57,994 nucleotides of DNA from an uncultured Gammaproteobacteria bacterium (GTDB lineage Bacteria; Patescibacteriota; Microgenomatia; CAZETR01). A program made the position numbers and the translations under genes. The stretch covers positions 1 to 57,994 of the forward strand of contig CAZETR010000032.1 of NCBI GenBank assembly GCA_964514545.1, given 5' to 3'. Below, piece by piece: positions 20,901 to 57,994 of this stretch (positions within the stretch are counted from its first letter, which is position 1; each line of letters starts with the position of its first letter). The notes under the pieces were generated by a model. That model was given only the letters and a program-made list of their open reading frames with translations. It did not search any database and was not told the DNA's origin.

Positions 20901-20972
20901 GCGCCCGTAGCTCAGCGGTAGAGCAGATGTCTTATACACATCGTGTCGGTGGTTCGAATCCATCCGGGCGCA
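20901..20972 (+). tRNA. tRNA-Ile(UAU)
   Basis: Cloverleaf gcgcccg/cgggcgc, D-stem gctc/gagc, anticodon stem gatgt/acatc, loop cttatac (TAT at 20933-20935), T-loop ttcgaat, A73. Confidence 0.9.
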
Positions 20973-21090
20973 CCGTAAATTTCTTGAGAATAGCTTACGG
21001 CGTAAACCCACCTGAGAAAAGTTTAAGGTCTAAACATAAGGGTAAACCGGTCCTTGACACAAAGAAAACAGTTAGTGTATAGGTAGGTTT

Positions 21091-54772: not shown

Positions 54773-54773
54773 G

Positions 54774-54845
54774 TGAGCCGGGGGGGATTCGAACCCTCAA
54801 CCAAGAGCTTAAAAGGCTCCTGCTCTACCGTTGAGCTACCGGCCC
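54774..54845 (-). tRNA. tRNA-Lys(UUU)
   Basis: gggccgg/ccggctc, loop cttttaa, T-loop ttcgaat. Confidence 0.95.
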
Positions 54846-54862
54846 TGTAAGAAATTCTGAGG

Positions 54863-54936
54863 AATTTTTACAGGATAAACCCCTTCAGAAAATCTAACTA
54901 ATTTTTACAGGGTAAACCCCTTCAGAAAATCTGAAC
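54863..54936. repeat. Two tandem 37-bp direct repeats
   Basis: aatttttacagg(a/g)taaaccccttcagaaaatct.. x2. Confidence 0.85.
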
Positions 54937-54960
54937 GATCTTTAATGAGTGACCTTTGAA

Positions 54961-55218
54961 CTAGGGAACGAAATTTTCTATTAGTTTTAATTTATTTTTC
55001 CTTTTCCAGTTTTTGATTGACGCTTCTCTTTTGAGAGCTGAGCTTTGAGTGTCCACAATTTCATAATATTGTAAGATAACCGGCCTTTTGGCTTTTAAAG
55101 ATTTGGCGCCTTTAAGATTATCATGGTTGTGTTCGTTTACACGTCTTTTTAGGTCAGTTGTGATACCTGTGTACAAAGAATTGTCTTTGCACCGGACTAT
55201 ATAGACGAACCAGGCCAT
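54961..55218 (-). CDS. GIY-YIG nuclease (UPF0213/YazA-like)
   Basis: WFVYIVRC...LYTGITTDLKRR, SALKREASIK. Confidence 0.9.
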   Translation of the reverse strand: MAWFVYIVRCKDNSLYTGITTDLKRRVNEHNHDNLKGAKSLKAKRPVILQYYEIVDTQSSALKREASIKNWKRKNKLKLIENFVP

Positions 55219-55220
55219 TG

Positions 55221-55292
55221 TGACGCCACGGGGATTCGAACCCCGATTAGAGCCTTGAAAGGGCTCGGTCCTAGCCATTAGACGATGGCGCC
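55221..55292 (-). tRNA. tRNA-Glu(UUC)
   Basis: ggcgcca/tggcgtc, loop ctttcaa, T-loop ttcgaat. Confidence 0.95.
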
Positions 55293-55386
55293 GCGTCAAA
55301 CGCGACTAGAACATATGATGTTTTGCCGAACGGTGGAATTATACTAAATTTACTCCAAGTGGGCGAGTGGAGTAAAATTAGGAGCT

Positions 55387-55752
55387 ATGAGCGACGATCC
55401 GGAAAAAGGAATGGAAGAGAGCGAGAAAGGGGAGGTGCCGACCGGCGGGGGAACGATAAGTTCATCGAAGATGACACTCGCTAAGGCAATTGAGATGGGG
55501 GAATATGATCCAGACTATTTGGCCACATTTCCGGAGTGGTATACCCACCCCAGACATTCACAATTTCAGCTGATTAGCAAGGCGCTCGACAATAGGAGGA
55601 AACACCTGTTGGTGCAGTGGGCCGAGCTTAATAATGTTCTTGATTTCAGTAAGAAACCGCATTTAAGGGATGCGCTGAAGAATGTGGAACAACAACTGAG
55701 AAAAGTGAGGGGTGATAAAGAGAGGATATTTGTAGAGTTTTCCCGTGATTAG
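55387..55752 (+). CDS. Hypothetical protein
   Basis: 121-aa ORF with SD aggag. Confidence 0.7.
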   Translation: MSDDPEKGMEESEKGEVPTGGGTISSSKMTLAKAIEMGEYDPDYLATFPEWYTHPRHSQFQLISKALDNRRKHLLVQWAELNNVLDFSKKPHLRDALKNVEQQLRKVRGDKERIFVEFSRD

Positions 55753-55756
55753 ACTG

Positions 55757-56092
55757 TCAGGCATGTTTTTCCAATGAAGCTGCTAGGGTAAAGGCATAAA
55801 AATAACGTTGCCATTGTTTGGCAGTTTGCCGGTATTGATTTTTCCCCAGGAAGAAATCGAGCCAGAGCTCGCGTCCACGGGCTATTTCTTTGAGTGTTGG
55901 GTAGTCGGAATGTGTGTCCAGTGTCAGATCGAAAAGTTCAAGAGCCCGGATGTTGGCAAGATTAGCATATTCGGAATTTCCCTTTTGTCTCCAGCGAATA
56001 GCTCTTTCAACTTCGCTGCCGATGTTGGCAAATTGATTGAATAGACTGAGTTTTGACCAACTATTTTTGTCTAGGTCTGAGTGTTGCATCAC
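55757..56092 (-). CDS. Hypothetical helical protein coupled to the DUF5674 gene
   Basis: QFANIGSEVERA...RALELFDLT; ATGA-type overlap with the upstream gene. Confidence 0.75.
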   Translation of the reverse strand: MMQHSDLDKNSWSKLSLFNQFANIGSEVERAIRWRQKGNSEYANLANIRALELFDLTLDTHSDYPTLKEIARGRELWLDFFLGKNQYRQTAKQWQRYFYAFTLAASLEKHA

Positions 56093-56460
56093 TTGACTAA
56101 TTTATTAACGAGATCCCGAATTTGGGTTTGGATTTCGGGATCGTCAACTCCTCGGCTGCTGTTGCCCTGGCTGGGTCGAAGATTAATCATTGAGTCGAAT
56201 TCAACAAAATCATCTCCTGTGAGTTCCGGGTAAAGATTTATTCCCCAGAGATCTGATTGACCGGAGCCAGTGGAGAGTAGGAATGACTCTTCGTCTGAGT
56301 GTAAGCTAGCATCGATGGCCATGACCCCCTTTTTAATATCCACGACTGCTTTTACCAGATTCCCAAACTTTGAAGAGGCTATTTGCTGAAGGTCTGATTT
56401 GAGGATGGGGAAGTCGATGAGTTTCACTGGTGTGATTATACACATGGTCGAGAGTGGCAT
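56089..56460 (-). CDS. DUF5674-family protein (alternative start 56445)
   Basis: LVKAVVDI, LHSDEE, LWGINLYP, EFDSMINLRPSQGN. Confidence 0.75.
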   Translation of the reverse strand: MPLSTMCIITPVKLIDFPILKSDLQQIASSKFGNLVKAVVDIKKGVMAIDASLHSDEESFLLSTGSGQSDLWGINLYPELTGDDFVEFDSMINLRPSQGNSSRGVDDPEIQTQIRDLVNKLVK

Positions 56461-56508
56461 CCGTGTTAAAATTCGGTTAGTCGGCGTTTTGGATTATCTT
56501 TTTAGGAT

Positions 56509-57531
56509 ATGATTGCAGGTTATAAACAAGTTTGGGAGAAAATAAGCGGAGCTGGCAGGGTACTGATATGTTGTCATGCCCGTCCGGACCCAGACATGGT
56601 GGGATCGGCGTTGGCGATGAAACTTGTGCTGGAGAAGTTGGGGAAGAAGGTGACGGCTATCTCCGGCGACGATCCGCCCCTCCTGTCTGTAAGTTTTCTC
56701 AAAGGTTTTGAGACTATAAAGCACTCGAGTTTTGGGGAGGTTAATTTAGCTGACTATGACTTGTTTCTAGCACTGGACTCGGGAAGTCCCGGGCAAATTT
56801 CCAGTAAAACGCCGCCTGACTTCCCGCTTTCGATTCCGACCGTGGTAGTTGACCACCATCAAGATAACGGGAAATACGGCGTTGTCAATTTGATTGAACC
56901 AAACATTTCTTCTACTGCTGAGTTACTGGCAAAAATGTTTGGCGAAATTGATTTTTCCTTAGTGGACTCTAACGTGGCCACTTGTTTATATGCCGGGATG
57001 TGGTCGGACAGCGGGGGGTTTACGTACTCATCTGTGACCGGGAATACATACATAATGGCGGGGAAGCTGTTGGAGAAGGGGGCGGATTTTACCAAAGTTG
57101 TTGCCGCGCTAAGTACGGTAGATCTGGCTAGTTTGAAAGTGCAAGGGTTGGCCTTGGCTAATACTAAATTATATTTTGGAAAGAGAGTGGTTGTGGCGAA
57201 GGTGCCGCTATCAGTGTTTCGGGAATTCGGAGTTAGGGAAGGCAGAATCGGGGACGTAAAGGAGGTGATTAATCGGAGTCTGTCTGGTTGCGGCGAGGTG
57301 GAAGTGTCGGCGGTAATATATGAATATAAACCGGGAGAGGTAAGCGTAAGCATGCGGTCGAACAATCCGAGAAAATATTGGGATATCTCAAAAATTGCCA
57401 AAGAGTTGGGTGGAGGTGGGCATAGTCAGACAGCGGCAGGGAGAGTGGGCGGAACAGTGGATGATGGGGAGAGGAAGTTTTTGGCGGCGGCCGCAAGGGT
57501 CTATCCTCTGTGGGGGGAAGCAGAGAGTTAG
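56509..57531 (+). CDS. DHH/DHHA1 phosphoesterase (NrnA-like)
   Basis: HARPDPD, LALDS, VVDHH, SSTAEL, DSG, GGGGH. Confidence 0.92.
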   Translation: MIAGYKQVWEKISGAGRVLICCHARPDPDMVGSALAMKLVLEKLGKKVTAISGDDPPLLSVSFLKGFETIKHSSFGEVNLADYDLFLALDSGSPGQISSKTPPDFPLSIPTVVVDHHQDNGKYGVVNLIEPNISSTAELLAKMFGEIDFSLVDSNVATCLYAGMWSDSGGFTYSSVTGNTYIMAGKLLEKGADFTKVVAALSTVDLASLKVQGLALANTKLYFGKRVVVAKVPLSVFREFGVREGRIGDVKEVINRSLSGCGEVEVSAVIYEYKPGEVSVSMRSNNPRKYWDISKIAKELGGGGHSQTAAGRVGGTVDDGERKFLAAAARVYPLWGEAES

Positions 57532-57616
57532 GGTTGGGGTTTGGGCTAATTGGGCCAATTTGTCTAATTTGGGGGGATGGGGAAAAACTGGAGTTGGTCG
57601 GGTATAATGTGAGTGG

Positions 57617-57941
57617 ATTGCGGGGTCGTCTGGAAATTGCCAACGCAATTTCAGAGGCTAGCTTTGCTAGCCGACACGGTAGTCCGAAGGGAAAACTAGA
57701 TTTAATTGCGGGGTCGTCTAACGGTATCAGGTTCTGCGGAACTGATATCCCTTACCTCGCTTGGGGTATAACGGATTTGCGAGTCCGATATCGCTTACCT
57801 CATTTTGTTGCTCATCTTGACTGCAAGATTCGCAAGTCGTGAGGAGCGCGAGCAAAGTGTTTCGCAAGTCGCGAGGGGCGTGATAAGCCCTGGACGATTA
57901 TTTGTAATCAACATTAATAATTGCGGGGTCGTCTAACGGTA
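57617..57941 (+). repeat. Three direct copies of the tRNA-Gln 5' end with structured spacers
   Basis: attgcggggtcgtct at 57617, 57705 and 57920; copies 2 and 3 share 24 bp. Confidence 0.9.
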
Positions 57942-57993
57942 GGACGCATCTCTTTGGAAGATGATATTCTAGGTTCGAATCCTAGCCCCGCAG
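57922..57993 (+). tRNA. tRNA-Gln(UUG)
   Basis: tgcgggg/ccccgca, loop ctttgga, T-loop ttcgaat, G73. Confidence 0.95.
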
Positions 57994-57994
57994 C

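What the first reader, a model, noticed from the sequence alone, without database searches (positions are those of the whole stretch)
57603..57993. tRNA-Gln preceded by two extra copies of its own 5' end, separated by structured 88- and 215-bp units
Seen: TATAAT at 57603; a 15-bp copy (57617), a 24-bp copy (57703) and the intact gene (57922). The spacers have no plausible ORF and are hairpin-rich (gaaattgc/gcaatttc, ggctagc/gctagcc, atcag/ctgat, cggatt/agtccg) with internal repeats (gatatcNcttacctc x2; ttcgcaagtcgYgagg x2). Established: integrative elements duplicate tRNA ends, usually the 3' end, and are kilobases long. Inference: tiny non-coding elements targeting the tRNA 5'/D-arm, or a functional multi-domain pre-tRNA leader.
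Basis: partly seen in the sequence, partly recalled or inferred. Interest (0 to 1): 0.66.

Follow-up and report, generated by a model that had tools for sequence, protein, structure and literature searches.

The report
Mobile-element scars before tRNA-Gln gene
The only glutamine tRNA (UUG) gene of this tiny uncultured Microgenomates (CPR) bacterium is preceded by two dead partial copies of its own start. Each is split in the D-loop by inserted hairpin DNA, and one insert belongs to a previously unlisted ~100-base folded repeat that clusters at tRNA and 5S RNA genes, so this is a footprint of small selfish DNA, not an RNA control device.

Summary
Exact 15-nt and 24-nt copies of the tRNA-Gln(UUG) 5' end lie 305 and 219 nt upstream of the intact gene.

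Each copy is the stump of a pseudo-tRNA interrupted in its D-loop. Unit 1 carries a unique 44-nt double hairpin. Unit 2 carries a composite copy of a dispersed element that I call X.

- **Structure:** X is about 100 nt: a variable hairpin P1 plus two long-range helices. The helices are supported by covariation (97.8% of cells paired, 8 of 10 pairs compensatory, 0 of 500 shuffles as good).
- **Database status:** X is absent from Rfam.
- **Copy number and spread:** it has 12 copies in this genome and 1-3 copies in 10 of the 27 other genomes of its order. It is rare elsewhere in the class and was absent from 400 other genomes of the phylum.
- **Location:** eight of the 12 copies lie within 200 nt of a tRNA or 5S gene (P = 3e-11). 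Nine sit inside local partial duplicates of the neighbouring gene.
- **Junctions:** X usually follows ...RTA and is usually followed by TA.
- **Relatives:** seven of eight related tRNA-Gln loci have no such copies.

Best reading: these are scars of small non-coding mobile DNA that targets loop-coding parts of stable-RNA genes. How the 5' end gets duplicated is unresolved. A dedicated pre-tRNA leader function is not supported.

The parts
57603..57608 (+). TATAAT -10-like box, 10 nt before the first pseudo 5' end. It is the likely promoter of the whole ~390-nt precursor (inferred).
   Evidence: Sequence. The same layout (-10 box, 7-11 nt, pseudo 5' end) is seen at tRNA-Gly(GCC), tRNA-Gln(CUG) and tRNA-Leu(CAA). 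The consensus scan found no -35 partner.
57617..57631 (+). Pseudo-copy 1, 5' stump: an exact 15-nt copy of tRNA-Gln positions -2..+13.
57632..57675 (+). 44-nt insert in the D-loop of pseudo-copy 1. It has two perfect hairpins (57633-57652 and 57656-57672) and is unique in the genome.
   Evidence: The RNA fold of 57615-57994 has z = -4.4.
57676..57702 (+). Decayed remainder of pseudo-copy 1. ACGGTAGTCCG matches tRNA positions 15-25 with 2 mismatches. CTAGATTTAAT resembles the T-arm CTAGGTTCGAAT.
   Evidence: Read from the sequence. G021 has a pseudo-copy broken at the same point, T13|A15.
57703..57726 (+). Pseudo-copy 2, 5' stump: an exact 24-nt copy of tRNA-Gln positions -4..+20, ending ...AACGGTA in the D-loop.
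   Evidence: The independent Logan contig ends exactly at 57726.
57727..57885 (+). Composite copy of repeat element X. In order: a first 5' half (P1 hairpin 57725-57747, then ATATCCCTTACCTCGC to 57760); a D-loop-like filler GGGGTATAACGGA (57763-57775); a full X core (57782-57859, covariance-model hit); and a second 3' half TTCGCAAGTCGCGAGGGGCGTGATA (57861-57885).
   Evidence: (56.1 bits, E 2.9e-11). An 80%-identical copy precedes tRNA-Gly(GCC) on contig C14.
57886..57921 (+). Spacer or leader directly before the intact gene. 57895-57920 is 92% identical to the 26 nt directly before tRNA-Gln(CUG) on contig C1.
57922..57994 (+). Intact tRNA-Gln(UUG) with U1-A72 and G73. It is single-copy in the genome, and the contig ends 1 nt after the discriminator base.

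Best explanation
The locus is a stack of insertion scars, not a device.

**What the locus is**
- The tRNA-Gln(UUG) gene has been hit at least twice in the DNA that encodes its D-loop. Each time the outcome that survived kept an intact gene downstream and left the old 5' stump next to the promoter.
- The older event (unit 1) holds a unique 44-nt double hairpin and has decayed.
- The younger event (unit 2) holds a composite copy of X, flanked by perfect 24-nt direct repeats.

**What X is**
- X is a ~100-nt non-coding element: a variable hairpin P1, then the conserved motif ATATCCCTTACC, then two nested long-range helices P2 and P3 enclosing conserved loops.
- It is a lineage-restricted dispersed repeat. 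Its ends sit after ...RTA and before TA/G.
- It prefers loop-coding stretches of stable-RNA genes: tRNA D-loops and 5S rRNA.
- It survives only where a second, intact copy of the target is present.

**Most likely mechanism (inferred)**
- X moves as folded single-stranded DNA, mobilised in trans, in the way REP or IS200/IS605-type hairpin elements are.
- In the few cases I could orient, X mostly reads the same way as the gene it interrupts. I did not tabulate orientation, and there are exceptions (one own copy and several copies in relatives lie antisense to or convergent with a tRNA).
- Some copies end in a promoter-like -35/extended -10 that points at the downstream gene.

**Consequence for the tRNA (inferred)**
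- The tRNA is probably transcribed from the TATAAT at 57603 as a long precursor and released by RNase P.
- The pseudo-copies and X are passengers in the leader.

**What remains open**
How the 5' end becomes duplicated is not settled. Two options stand: a duplication built into the insertion mechanism, or a separate duplication with selection followed by trimming.
For: **Repeat family**
- The body of unit 2 recurs in the same genome upstream of tRNA-Gly(GCC), there flanked by a copy of that tRNA's own 5' end.
- A covariance model finds 12 copies in this genome. It finds 1-3 copies in 10 of the 27 other genomes of the order, and hits in 15 of 301 genomes of the class (own genome included). It finds none in 400 other genomes of the phylum.

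**Structure**
- 97.8% of cells are paired and 8 of 10 pairs show compensatory change.
- The covariation score is 0.538, against 0.179 in shuffles (0 of 500 as high) and at most 0.10 when the partners are slid.
- P1 also covaries by eye.

**Target preference and junctions**
- Eight of 12 copies lie within 200 nt of a tRNA or 5S gene (binomial P = 3.4e-11).
- About half of the copies in relatives and metagenomes lie next to tRNAs.
- The junctions read GGTA|X|GGAC, GATA|X|(TA)GAGC and GATA|X|GT.., with the flanks contiguous in the intact gene.
- Nine of 12 copies sit in local partial duplicates. These include a 5S 3' part and the last ~50 nt of a protein gene.

**Generality and dispensability**
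- By my reading, eight of the 43 tRNA genes here carry upstream pseudo 5' stumps with D-loop inserts.
- Seven of eight relatives' tRNA-Gln loci are empty.
- No Rfam family matches and the crossing ORFs show no coding signal.

**Candidate mobilising enzymes**
- No reverse transcriptase (Pfam RVT_1) is found in the 96%-complete genome.
- Four Y1 HUH transposase genes are present.
Against: - No transposase has been tied to X. The Y1 genes carry different palindromes and occur in 26 of 28 genomes of the order whether or not X is present.
- X has no terminal inverted repeats beyond about 3 nt.
- The TA flanks are clear in only about 6 of 8 junctions.
- No precise empty site for an X copy was recovered from a close relative. 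The only 77%-identical neighbour lacks synteny.
- The strong conservation of the unpaired loops and the promoter-like 3' end could instead mean a host function.
- The left edge of every 5' duplication falls within 4 nt of the tRNA start or predicted transcription start. Simple insertion plus selection does not predict that.
- Bases 57727-57994 have not been verified by reads.
Confidence: 0.6

Rival explanations
1. Gene-replacement cassettes. DNA carrying a tRNA copy with foreign flanks (sometimes with a nuclease-like gene) recombines with the resident tRNA gene. One end uses homology inside the tRNA and the other makes an illegitimate join in the D-loop. The resident 5' stump stays upstream. 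X is then cargo or the end structure of such cassettes, not an autonomous inserter.
For: - In G047, a 25-nt tRNA-Gln 5' fragment is followed by a 228-aa ORF and then an intact tRNA-Gln of different sequence.
- Homologues of that ORF sit directly upstream of tRNA-Met and tRNA-Tyr in this genome.
- Five small GIY-YIG genes were found. Four lie directly after a tRNA or tmRNA gene; I did not examine the surroundings of the fifth, on the rRNA contig C18.
- In the C15 tRNA-Arg locus, the pseudo halves differ in their stems from the intact gene.
- Duplication edges coincide with gene ends. That is expected if only the gene is homologous between donor and recipient.
- The 26-nt leader is shared at 92% between the two tRNA-Gln loci, although the tRNAs themselves are only 77% alike.
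Against: - The pseudo stumps at tRNA-Gln(UUG) are 100% identical to the intact gene, so no foreign allele is visible.
- Neither unit contains an ORF or an ORF remnant.
- X also sits in 5S fragments and in a protein-gene tail, with both flanks contiguous. That is simple insertion.
- The 228-aa ORF has no Pfam or PDB match, so its nuclease nature is unproven.
Confidence: 0.2
2. Functional structured leader. The pseudo 5' ends and X fold in the precursor, for example by competing for the 3' acceptor strand, and so tune processing or expression of the single tRNA-Gln(UUG). Alternatively, X is a reusable promoter and regulatory module for stable-RNA genes.
For: - X is under structural selection.
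- In several metagenome contigs, the X 3' end reads TTCGCA/CTCGCA, then 17 nt, then TGATAAAAT, with tRNA +1 8-11 nt later.
- X usually points toward the downstream gene.
- The minimum-free-energy fold pairs the second 5' copy with the tRNA 3' end.
Against: - Seven of eight relatives express tRNA-Gln without it.
- The -10 part is degenerate in this locus (TAAGCC) and in many other copies.
- X lies inside dead gene fragments, downstream of 5S, antisense to tRNAs, and upstream of a terminator.
- Unit 1 is decayed and its insert is unique.
Confidence: 0.12
3. Classical attachment-site scars of integrase-driven islands or phages at a tRNA gene, with most of the element since deleted.
For: - tRNA genes are the standard integration targets (established knowledge).
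- The contig breaks right at the tRNA 3' end.
- A 43-49-nt copy of the tRNA-Gln(CUG) 3' part lies about 600-660 nt downstream of that gene.
Against: - The duplications here are of the 5' end, not the 3' end.
- The units are 88 and 215 bp and contain no integrase or ORF remnant.
- The same small insert family recurs at many genes.
Confidence: 0.05
4. Assembly artefact: a repeat-induced misjoin near the contig end.
For: - The feature is within 400 nt of a contig end.
- The independent Logan contig stops at 57726.
Against: - The Logan contig independently reproduces the promoter, unit 1 and the second 5' copy.
- The same architecture exists at tRNA-Gly(GCC) with an X copy only 80% identical, so the two cannot have been collapsed into each other.
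- Analogous loci exist in other genomes.
Confidence: 0.03

Closest known systems
REP/BIME/REPIN elements and IS200/IS605-derived palindrome-associated elements, mobilised in trans by Y1 HUH transposases (RAYT/TnpA). Comparison from general knowledge.
   Same: - Small, non-coding and hairpin-forming, with many dispersed copies.
- Structure is kept by compensatory change.
- Insertion occurs next to a short motif with no clear target duplication.
- Y1 transposase genes are present in the genome.
   Different: - X is larger and has two domains with long-range helices.
- Its hairpins do not match the palindromes that flank the Y1 genes here.
- There is no co-occurrence signal with the Y1 genes.
- Its strong preference for the inside of tRNA and 5S genes, with partial gene duplication, is not a described feature of REPs.
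Correia repeat-enclosed elements of Neisseria and other bacterial MITEs (PMC2649163, PMC2229807)
   Same: - About 100-150 bp, TA at the insertion site, and able to create outward promoters.
- Transcribed into folded RNA.
- Copy number differs greatly between related genomes.
   Different: - Correia elements have 26-bp terminal inverted repeats and a true TA duplication. X has only about 3 nt of terminal symmetry, and its TA flanks are not always present.
- Correia elements are not targeted to tRNA gene interiors.
Integrative elements that target tRNA genes with tyrosine integrases (attL/attR partial tRNA copies). Comparison from general knowledge.
   Same: A tRNA gene is the target, and the gene stays intact because part of it is duplicated as a direct repeat.
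   Different: - Those elements are kilobases long, encode the integrase and duplicate the 3' part.
- Here the units are 88-215 bp, non-coding, and duplicate the 5' part from about the transcription start to the D-loop.
Mobile or reused promoters of prokaryotes (PMC3575422)
   Same: A near-identical upstream module is found before unrelated genes (several different tRNAs, and uvrC and other protein genes), with a -35/-10-like 3' end.
   Different: - Promoter function of X is untested and the -10 is degenerate in many copies.
- X carries covarying helices, which a double-stranded promoter does not need.
Free-standing homing-endonuclease genes that leave partial gene duplications (phage T4 seg genes in the tRNA cluster; fungal mitochondrial genes). 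Comparison from general knowledge.
   Same: - Insertion is at a conserved gene, with a spare copy of the displaced gene end.
- GIY-YIG genes lie beside tRNA and tmRNA genes in this genome.
   Different: - Neither unit contains an endonuclease gene or a remnant of one.
- X is multi-copy and structured.

Membership tests
Known RNA family (Rfam 15), including group I intron, ribozymes and riboswitches | A match to a curated covariance model | tested here: not met
   Only tRNA matched, even at E<=10 on 57450-57994 and at E<=5 on six X loci of other genomes.
Structured single-stranded nucleic-acid element (RNA or ssDNA) | Base pairs kept by compensatory changes beyond the controls | tested here: met
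   28 copies: 97.8% paired, 8 of 10 pairs with double changes, score 0.538 against 0.179 in shuffles (0 of 500) and at most 0.10 when slid. The alignment was fitted to the model, which favours pairing somewhat.
Dispersed mobile repeat (MITE/REP-like, in the broad sense) | Several copies at non-homologous sites, with patchy distribution and varying copy number among relatives | tested here: met
   12 copies here and 0-3 in relatives. Positive in 11 of 28 genomes of the order, 15 of 301 of the class, and 0 of 400 others in the phylum.
Dispersed mobile repeat (MITE/REP-like, in the broad sense) | An empty site: the same locus without the element in a close relative or population variant | tested here: inconclusive
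   Seven of eight relatives' tRNA-Gln loci lack any copy, but they are distant. The contig break at 57726 hints at a variant. The closest neighbour lacks synteny.
MITE of the IS630/Tc1-mariner type (Correia-like) | Terminal inverted repeats of roughly 15-30 bp | tested here: not met
   The ends read TCRG... and ...GCGTGA, with only about 3 nt of symmetry.
MITE of the IS630/Tc1-mariner type (Correia-like) | TA target-site duplication | tested here: inconclusive
   TA is seen on both sides in about 6 of 8 junctions where the target is known. However, the left TA can equally be the base of hairpin P1.
IS200/IS605-type or REP element moved by a Y1 HUH transposase | Insertion 3' of a short specific motif, no duplication, and subterminal hairpins | tested here: inconclusive
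   The target reads RRTA| (GGTA, GATA, AATA). There are hairpins at both ends, and about 10 nt from the foot of P2 to the 3' end. P1 starts at the very end of the element, leaving no room for a guide sequence.
IS200/IS605-type or REP element moved by a Y1 HUH transposase | A cognate Y1 transposase whose flanking hairpins match the element | tested here: not met
   Four Y1 genes are present, but their palindromes (TGACAGGGTTCAACCCTGTCA and TAGCTTCGCAAGG...) differ from X. Y1 genes occur in 26 of 28 genomes regardless of X.
Retro-element or RNA-templated insertion | A reverse transcriptase in the genome | tested here: not met
   No Pfam RVT_1 match in the 96%-complete genome.
tRNA-targeting integrase element (att scar) | A 3'-end direct repeat bounding a kilobase-sized element with an integrase | tested here: not met
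   The repeats are of the 5' end, the units are 88 and 215 bp, and the ORFs have no family match. The genome was not searched for integrases.
Sigma-70 promoter module | -35 and -10 hexamers 16-18 nt apart, with a start site before the gene | tested here: inconclusive
   TTCGCA-17 nt-TAAAAT with an upstream TG appears in some copies, 8-11 nt before tRNA +1. The element is degenerate here (TAAGCC) and in many other copies. The scanner found none in the locus. No transcript data were available.

The most novel reading that the evidence does not exclude
Insertion and duplication are one reaction. On this reading, a family of tiny hairpin DNAs enters the sense strand of heavily transcribed stable-RNA genes at an exposed loop (after GGTA in the D-loop). 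The integration chemistry itself regenerates the gene's 5' end from about the transcription start. The result would be a structure- or transcription-guided target duplication of 9-24 nt with one fixed edge. That is the mirror image of integrase attachment sites and is unlike any described transposition mechanism. X would be its largest, promoter-carrying member in CPR bacteria.
Probability: 0.2. Interest if true: 0.85.

Novelty: new variant of a known kind. Interest (0 to 1): 0.62.

Why it matters
**tRNA annotation in CPR bacteria.** tRNA genes in these reduced, uncultured bacteria turn out to be hot spots for very small non-coding insertions. The insertions leave 5'-end stumps and long structured leaders. 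This affects tRNA annotation, because pseudo-fragments and apparently split genes appear. It affects promoter and leader prediction, and contigs break at these loci.

**A new element family.** X is a new, covariation-supported structured element with a sharply limited host range and a recent burst in one genome. That makes it a tractable model for how hairpin repeats move when no transposon-like ends are visible.

**Possible new mechanism.** If the 5' duplication is built into the insertion mechanism, it would be a new way for selfish DNA to occupy essential genes without killing the host.

**Possible host effect.** If X supplies promoters, it is a natural mobile promoter for stable-RNA genes.

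Tried and rejected
- **Rfam:** neither the locus nor six other X loci matched anything but tRNA.
- **Group I intron or other tRNA intron:** rejected. The intact gene is uninterrupted, there is no model match, and the position is wrong.
- **Unit 1 insert as a repeat:** it is unique in the genome.
- **Retro-mechanism:** no RVT_1 gene is present.
- **Link to Y1 transposases:** their palindromes differ from X and there is no co-occurrence.
- **Orthologous locus through the upstream DHH gene:** the exact protein is found only on a 2.8-kb Logan contig. The 77%-identical homologue has no tRNA-Gln downstream.
- **The 110-aa ORF spanning the units:** it is not on record elsewhere.
- **Exact-pattern scans:**
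  - The promoter/pseudo-copy junction is absent from JGI metagenomes.
  - A strict pattern for the X 5' half hit only two reference genomes, an Amesbacteria and a Microgenomates MAG.
  - A degenerate pattern for the 3' half gave 19 metagenome loci.
- **The G047 ORF as a LAGLIDADG nuclease (my recollection of its motifs):** there is no Pfam or PDB match, and PHROGs gave only three weak hits (E 0.04-0.17) on the N-terminal part, so this is left open.
- **Comparison of the unit 1 insert with G021's insert at the same breakpoint:** no convincing homology.
- **Literature:** full-text searches found no description of 5'-end tRNA duplications with D-loop hairpin inserts in CPR bacteria.
Full report
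**1. Observation**

The window ends in a tRNA-Gln(UUG) gene at 57922-57994 (ARAGORN; Rfam tRNA 61.9 bits). It has U1-A72 and G73. It is the only UUG isoacceptor among the 43 tRNA genes of this 1.10-Mb, 63-contig, 96%-complete genome.

The 15-mer ATTGCGGGGTCGTCT occurs exactly at 57617, 57705 and 57920. The 24-mer TAATTGCGGGGTCGTCTAACGGTA occurs at 57703 and 57918. The copies therefore span tRNA positions -2..+13 and -4..+20, and both stop inside the D-loop.

TATAAT lies at 57603-57608, 10 nt before the first copy. The ORFs that cross the region have no family match.

An independently assembled Logan contig from run ERR3478687 is base-for-base identical to the window from 54903 to 57726.

**2. 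Anatomy of the two units**

Each unit is the stump of a tRNA-Gln pseudo-copy with foreign DNA in its D-loop.

- **Unit 1.** It consists of tRNA -2..+13, then a 44-nt insert with two perfect hairpins (57632-57675), then ACGGTAGTCCG (positions 15-25 with two mismatches), then a decayed tail whose CTAGATTTAAT recalls the T-arm. The insert is unique in the genome.
- **Unit 2.** It consists of tRNA -4..+20 ending ...AACGGTA, then 159 nt of repeat-family sequence (57727-57885), then a 36-nt spacer. The last 26 nt of that spacer are 92% identical to the stretch directly before the paralogous tRNA-Gln(CUG) on contig C1.

**3. The repeat family X**

*Discovery.* A search of the organism's own genome with the locus found an 80%-identical copy of the unit 2 body on contig C14. 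There it lies directly upstream of tRNA-Gly(GCC) and is itself preceded by TTGCGGGCGTAGTTCAGCG, a copy of that tRNA's 5' end. Partial copies lie near tRNA-Ala and tRNA-Arg. Weak hits in other genomes revealed a shared core:

- a variable hairpin P1 (TATC..GATA);
- then ATATCCCTTACCTCRC TTTG TTGC TCA, a variable stretch, and TTTC GCAA GTC GYGAGG RGCGTGAT.

*Structure.* A covariance model of 72 positions and 10 pairs aligned 28 copies.

- 97.8% of cells are paired.
- Eight of 10 pairs have compensatory changes, in 48 cells.
- The covariation score is 0.538, against 0.179 +/- 0.020 in shuffles (0 of 500 as high) and at most 0.10 with slid partners.
- P3 occurs as TTGC/GCAA, AGCC/GGCT, TCGC/GCGA, TGGC/GCCA and GGCT/GGCC within this one genome.
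- P2 is AGATTG/CAATCT in G002.

The alignment is model-fitted, which favours pairing somewhat, but the number of pair types and the slid controls are not explained by that. G-U-type pairs (5 cells) are no commoner than other mismatches (6 cells). The data therefore do not say whether the folded form is RNA or DNA, nor which strand folds.

*Database status and distribution.* Rfam has no matching family.

| Scope | Genomes with X |
|---|---|
| This genome | 12 copies |
| Own order | 11 of 28 genomes, own genome included; 1-2 copies in each of the other ten |
| Class | 15 of 301 genomes, own genome included |
| Rest of the phylum | 0 of 400 genomes |

Reference genomes carrying the canonical 5' half are titled Candidatus Amesbacteria and Microgenomates group bacterium.

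*The copy in the window.* It is composite. It has one extra 5' half (57725-57760), a D-loop-like filler GGGGTATAACGGA, a full core (57782-57859, 56.1 bits), and an extra 3' half (57861-57885). The C14 copy shares this build, and a C44 copy shares the doubled 3' half.

**4. Where X sits**

*Proximity.* Eight of the 12 copies lie within 200 nt of a tRNA or 5S gene. About 2.3% of the genome is that close, giving a binomial P of 3.4e-11. Nine of 12 have flanks that are repeated nearby, meaning X lies inside a local partial duplicate of the adjacent gene.

*Junctions.* Where the uninterrupted target is known, the two flanks of X are contiguous in it:

| Target | Junction |
|---|---|
| pseudo-tRNA-Gln on C1 | ..TCTAACGGTA \| X \| AGGACAATGG.., a 53-nt run to the 3' end |
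| pseudo-tRNA-Arg | ..CAACGGATA \| X \| (TA)GAGAGCAGACCCGT.. |
| pseudo-tRNA-Ala | ..CCGGTA \| X \| TAGAGCGC..TCATTTGCAATG |
| 5S rRNA, site 1 | ..GCGCAGACGATA \| X \| GTGATCCCGC.. |
| 5S rRNA, site 2 | ..GCGAAAATA \| X \| ..CGAGGCCAGAACAATGCTGTTTTT |
| protein-gene tail on C11 | ..GGATACGGTTCTTA \| X \| AAACAAAAGAAAGAGGAGATTATTTAA |

Both 5S sites lie in a single duplicate of the last ~45 nt of 5S, just after the intact gene. The C11 protein-gene duplicate lies just after the intact stop codon.

*Pattern.* X begins TCRG right after ...RTA and ends ...GGRGCG(NGA). It is followed by TA or G in about six of eight cases.

*Orientation.* Of the cases I could orient, most are in the sense of the interrupted RNA gene. 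One (C15, minus strand) is antisense, in a T-loop fragment.

*Other genomes.* In relatives and in 19 metagenome contigs, roughly half of the copies abut tRNAs.

- X lies directly upstream of tRNA-Gly(CCC), preceded by GCGGGATA or GCGGATA, a copy of that tRNA's first 8-9 nt.
- It lies upstream of tRNA-Asp, -Thr, -Met and -Pro.
- It also lies convergent with tRNA-Arg, -Thr, -Ala and -Ile.

**5. The pattern is genome-wide, and mostly absent from relatives**

By my reading, eight tRNA genes carry upstream 5' stumps that break in or next to the D-loop and are followed by hairpin DNA:

- Gln(UUG), with two stumps;
- Gln(CUG), with 18-22 nt;
- Gly(GCC), with 19 nt;
- Leu(CAA), covering -4..+23 and then a 32-35-nt hairpin;
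- Arg(CCU), Ala(UGC) and Pro(UGG).

In the four clean cases a -10 box sits 6-8 nt before the start of the repeat. The left edge of the duplication therefore coincides, within a few nucleotides, with both the tRNA 5' end and the predicted transcription start.

Seven of eight tRNA-Gln(UUG) loci in related genomes have no upstream copy. G021 has a 13-nt copy 111 nt upstream, broken at the same point as unit 1 (T13|A15). Its insert is different, and it also has 3' pseudo-copies downstream.

**6. Reliability**

- The Logan contig confirms everything up to 57726 and then stops at exactly the last base of the 24-nt repeat.
- Logan assemblies, as I recall, use 31-mers, and the preceding bases are unique to copy 2. 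An end at that point therefore suggests a fork in the read graph. That would mean some genomes in the sample continue differently, most simply into GGACGC, which is a variant lacking unit 2. This is an inference, not a result.
- Misassembly is unlikely, because the same architecture occurs at tRNA-Gly(GCC) with a diverged X copy and in other genomes.

**7. How it most likely works**

*Shown:*
- The 5' copies are parts of dead gene copies.
- X is a structured, dispersed, lineage-restricted repeat with a strong bias for stable-RNA genes and a recurrent junction pattern.
- It has diversified within this genome while keeping its helices.

*Inferred:*
- X is, or recently was, mobile as folded single-stranded DNA and is mobilised in trans.
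- A retro-mechanism is unlikely, because no RVT_1 gene is present.
- Y1 HUH transposases are the obvious candidates. There are four genes, and this enzyme class inserts next to a short motif without duplication and depends on hairpins.
- The link is unproven. Their own palindromes differ from X, and they occur in 26 of 28 genomes regardless of X.
- The bias toward the sense strand, loop targets and highly transcribed genes would fit exposure of the non-template or lagging-template strand.

*Promoter-like 3' end.* Some X copies end in TTCGCA-17 nt-TGATAAAAT, 8-11 nt before tRNA +1. X may therefore donate a promoter. In this locus the hexamer is TAAGCC. I therefore expect transcription from the TATAAT at 57603 and RNase P release at 57922.

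*Ways the intact gene could be preserved:*
- (a) X inserts wherever its target motif occurs, and only hits in spare copies survive. Spontaneous tandem duplicates would then be stabilised because the insert breaks the homology into stretches of 27 nt or less, and later trimmed. The multi-insert pseudo-5S and pseudo-tRNA-Arg fit this.
- (b) The duplication is part of the insertion reaction. The a-X-a layouts at Gln(UUG), Gly(GCC) and Gly(CCC), and the fixed left edge at the tRNA start, fit this.
- (c) Incoming DNA carrying a tRNA copy recombines by one homologous and one illegitimate join.

Nuclease-like genes crowd the tRNA loci, which is relevant to (c).

- Five small GIY-YIG genes were found. 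Four lie directly after tRNA-Glu (window 54964-55218), tRNA-Gly, tRNA-Tyr or tmRNA. I did not examine the surroundings of the fifth, on the rRNA contig C18.
- A 228-aa ORF family lies directly before tRNA-Gln in G047 and before tRNA-Met and tRNA-Tyr here.

I could not discriminate among (a), (b) and (c).

**8. Comparison with what is known**

X works most like REP/BIME or IS200/IS605-derived hairpin repeats and like Correia-type MITEs (PMC2649163, PMC2229807). It possibly also acts like a mobile promoter (PMC3575422).

It fails the membership tests that could be run:
- it has no long terminal inverted repeats;
- its hairpins do not match those of any cognate transposase gene;
- it matches no Rfam family.

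The gene-preserving duplication resembles integrase attachment sites. However, it involves the 5' end and elements 10-100 times smaller, with no integrase.

Earlier notes of this scan describe similar 5'-stump-plus-hairpin loci in other CPR genomes. I treated them as leads. My data agree with them. They add a larger, two-domain, covariation-supported family that also hits 5S rRNA and a protein-gene tail.

Full-text searches found no published description.

**9. Verdict**

The reading of a tiny element targeting the D-arm is essentially right, and the reading of a functional leader is not supported. The finding is a new variant of small non-autonomous mobile DNA. The open and potentially novel question is how the 5' end is regenerated.

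Noticed in passing
window 54964-55218 (-), with tRNA-Glu 55220-55292 (-) and tRNA-Lys 54773-54845 (-): A small GIY-YIG gene (Pfam E 5e-22) starts 2 nt after tRNA-Glu and lies before tRNA-Lys. Four more small GIY-YIG genes exist in this genome. Three lie directly after tRNA-Gly(UCC), tRNA-Tyr or tmRNA; the fourth is on the rRNA contig C18, and I did not examine its neighbours.
   Followed up: partly
window about 54860-54960 (-): Two tandem ~37-nt repeats (AGATTTTCTGAAGGGGTTTAYCCTGTAAAAATT) are followed by a hairpin whose 3' arm runs into the tRNA-Lys 5' end. The independent Logan contig starts inside this repeat.
   Followed up: no
genome contig C15:4270-4840 (locus L058): tRNA-Arg(CCU) is surrounded by two pseudo 5' halves (positions 1-37) and two pseudo 3' halves. 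Their acceptor strands pair with each other (GGTCTCG/CGAGATC and GACCCCG/CGGGGTC). They are joined to the complementary sequences GAAAAATTTGC and GCAAATTTTTC, and they are interleaved rather than nested. It looks like a tRNA-carrying insert in the anticodon loop of older copies.
   Followed up: partly
genome contigs C48:3583-4251 (+) and C10:about 17900-17330 (-); G047 locus L042:209-892 (-): A family of roughly 220-aa ORFs has an N-terminal helix-turn-helix-like region and a LYW(A/G)EG(S/T)K motif. Each lies immediately upstream of a tRNA gene (Met, Tyr, Gln). There is no Pfam or PDB match. In G047 the ORF separates a 25-nt tRNA-Gln 5' fragment from an intact variant tRNA-Gln.
   Followed up: partly
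genome contig C18:6213-6640 (locus L066): The intact 5S rRNA gene is followed by a duplicate of its last ~45 nt. That duplicate carries three inserts: two X copies and a 30-nt AT hairpin (TTTAAATTTTCGAGAAAATTTAAA).
   Followed up: yes
genome contig C1:2436-3290 (locus L071): tRNA-Gln(CUG) has its own 5' stump about 100 nt upstream. About 550 nt downstream, beyond a small ~80-aa ORF, lies a near-complete pseudo-tRNA-Gln with X in its D-loop.
   Followed up: partly
window 20901-20974 (+); genome contig C51:3228-3300: ARAGORN calls a tRNA-Ile with anticodon UAU in the window and one with anticodon AAU on another contig. Both anticodons are unusual for bacteria.
   Followed up: no
genome contigs C33:64917-65660 and C56:6470-7070: RAYT-like Y1 transposase genes are bracketed by, and internally carry, perfect palindromes (TGACAGGGTTSAACCCTGTCA and TAGCTTCGCAAGGCCAGGCCTTGCGAAGCTA). 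The second palindrome shares the 8-mer TTCGCAAG with X, which is probably chance.
   Followed up: partly
X 3' tails in all loci (alignment A5): The conserved tail GCGTGAT(T/A)GAA after helix P2 resembles three things: an extended -10, the first nucleotides of tRNA-Gly(CCC) (GCGGGATTAG, which replaces the tail in G002 and G019), and the tRNA-Gly D-arm (GCGGTAGAAT). Its origin is unresolved.
   Followed up: partly
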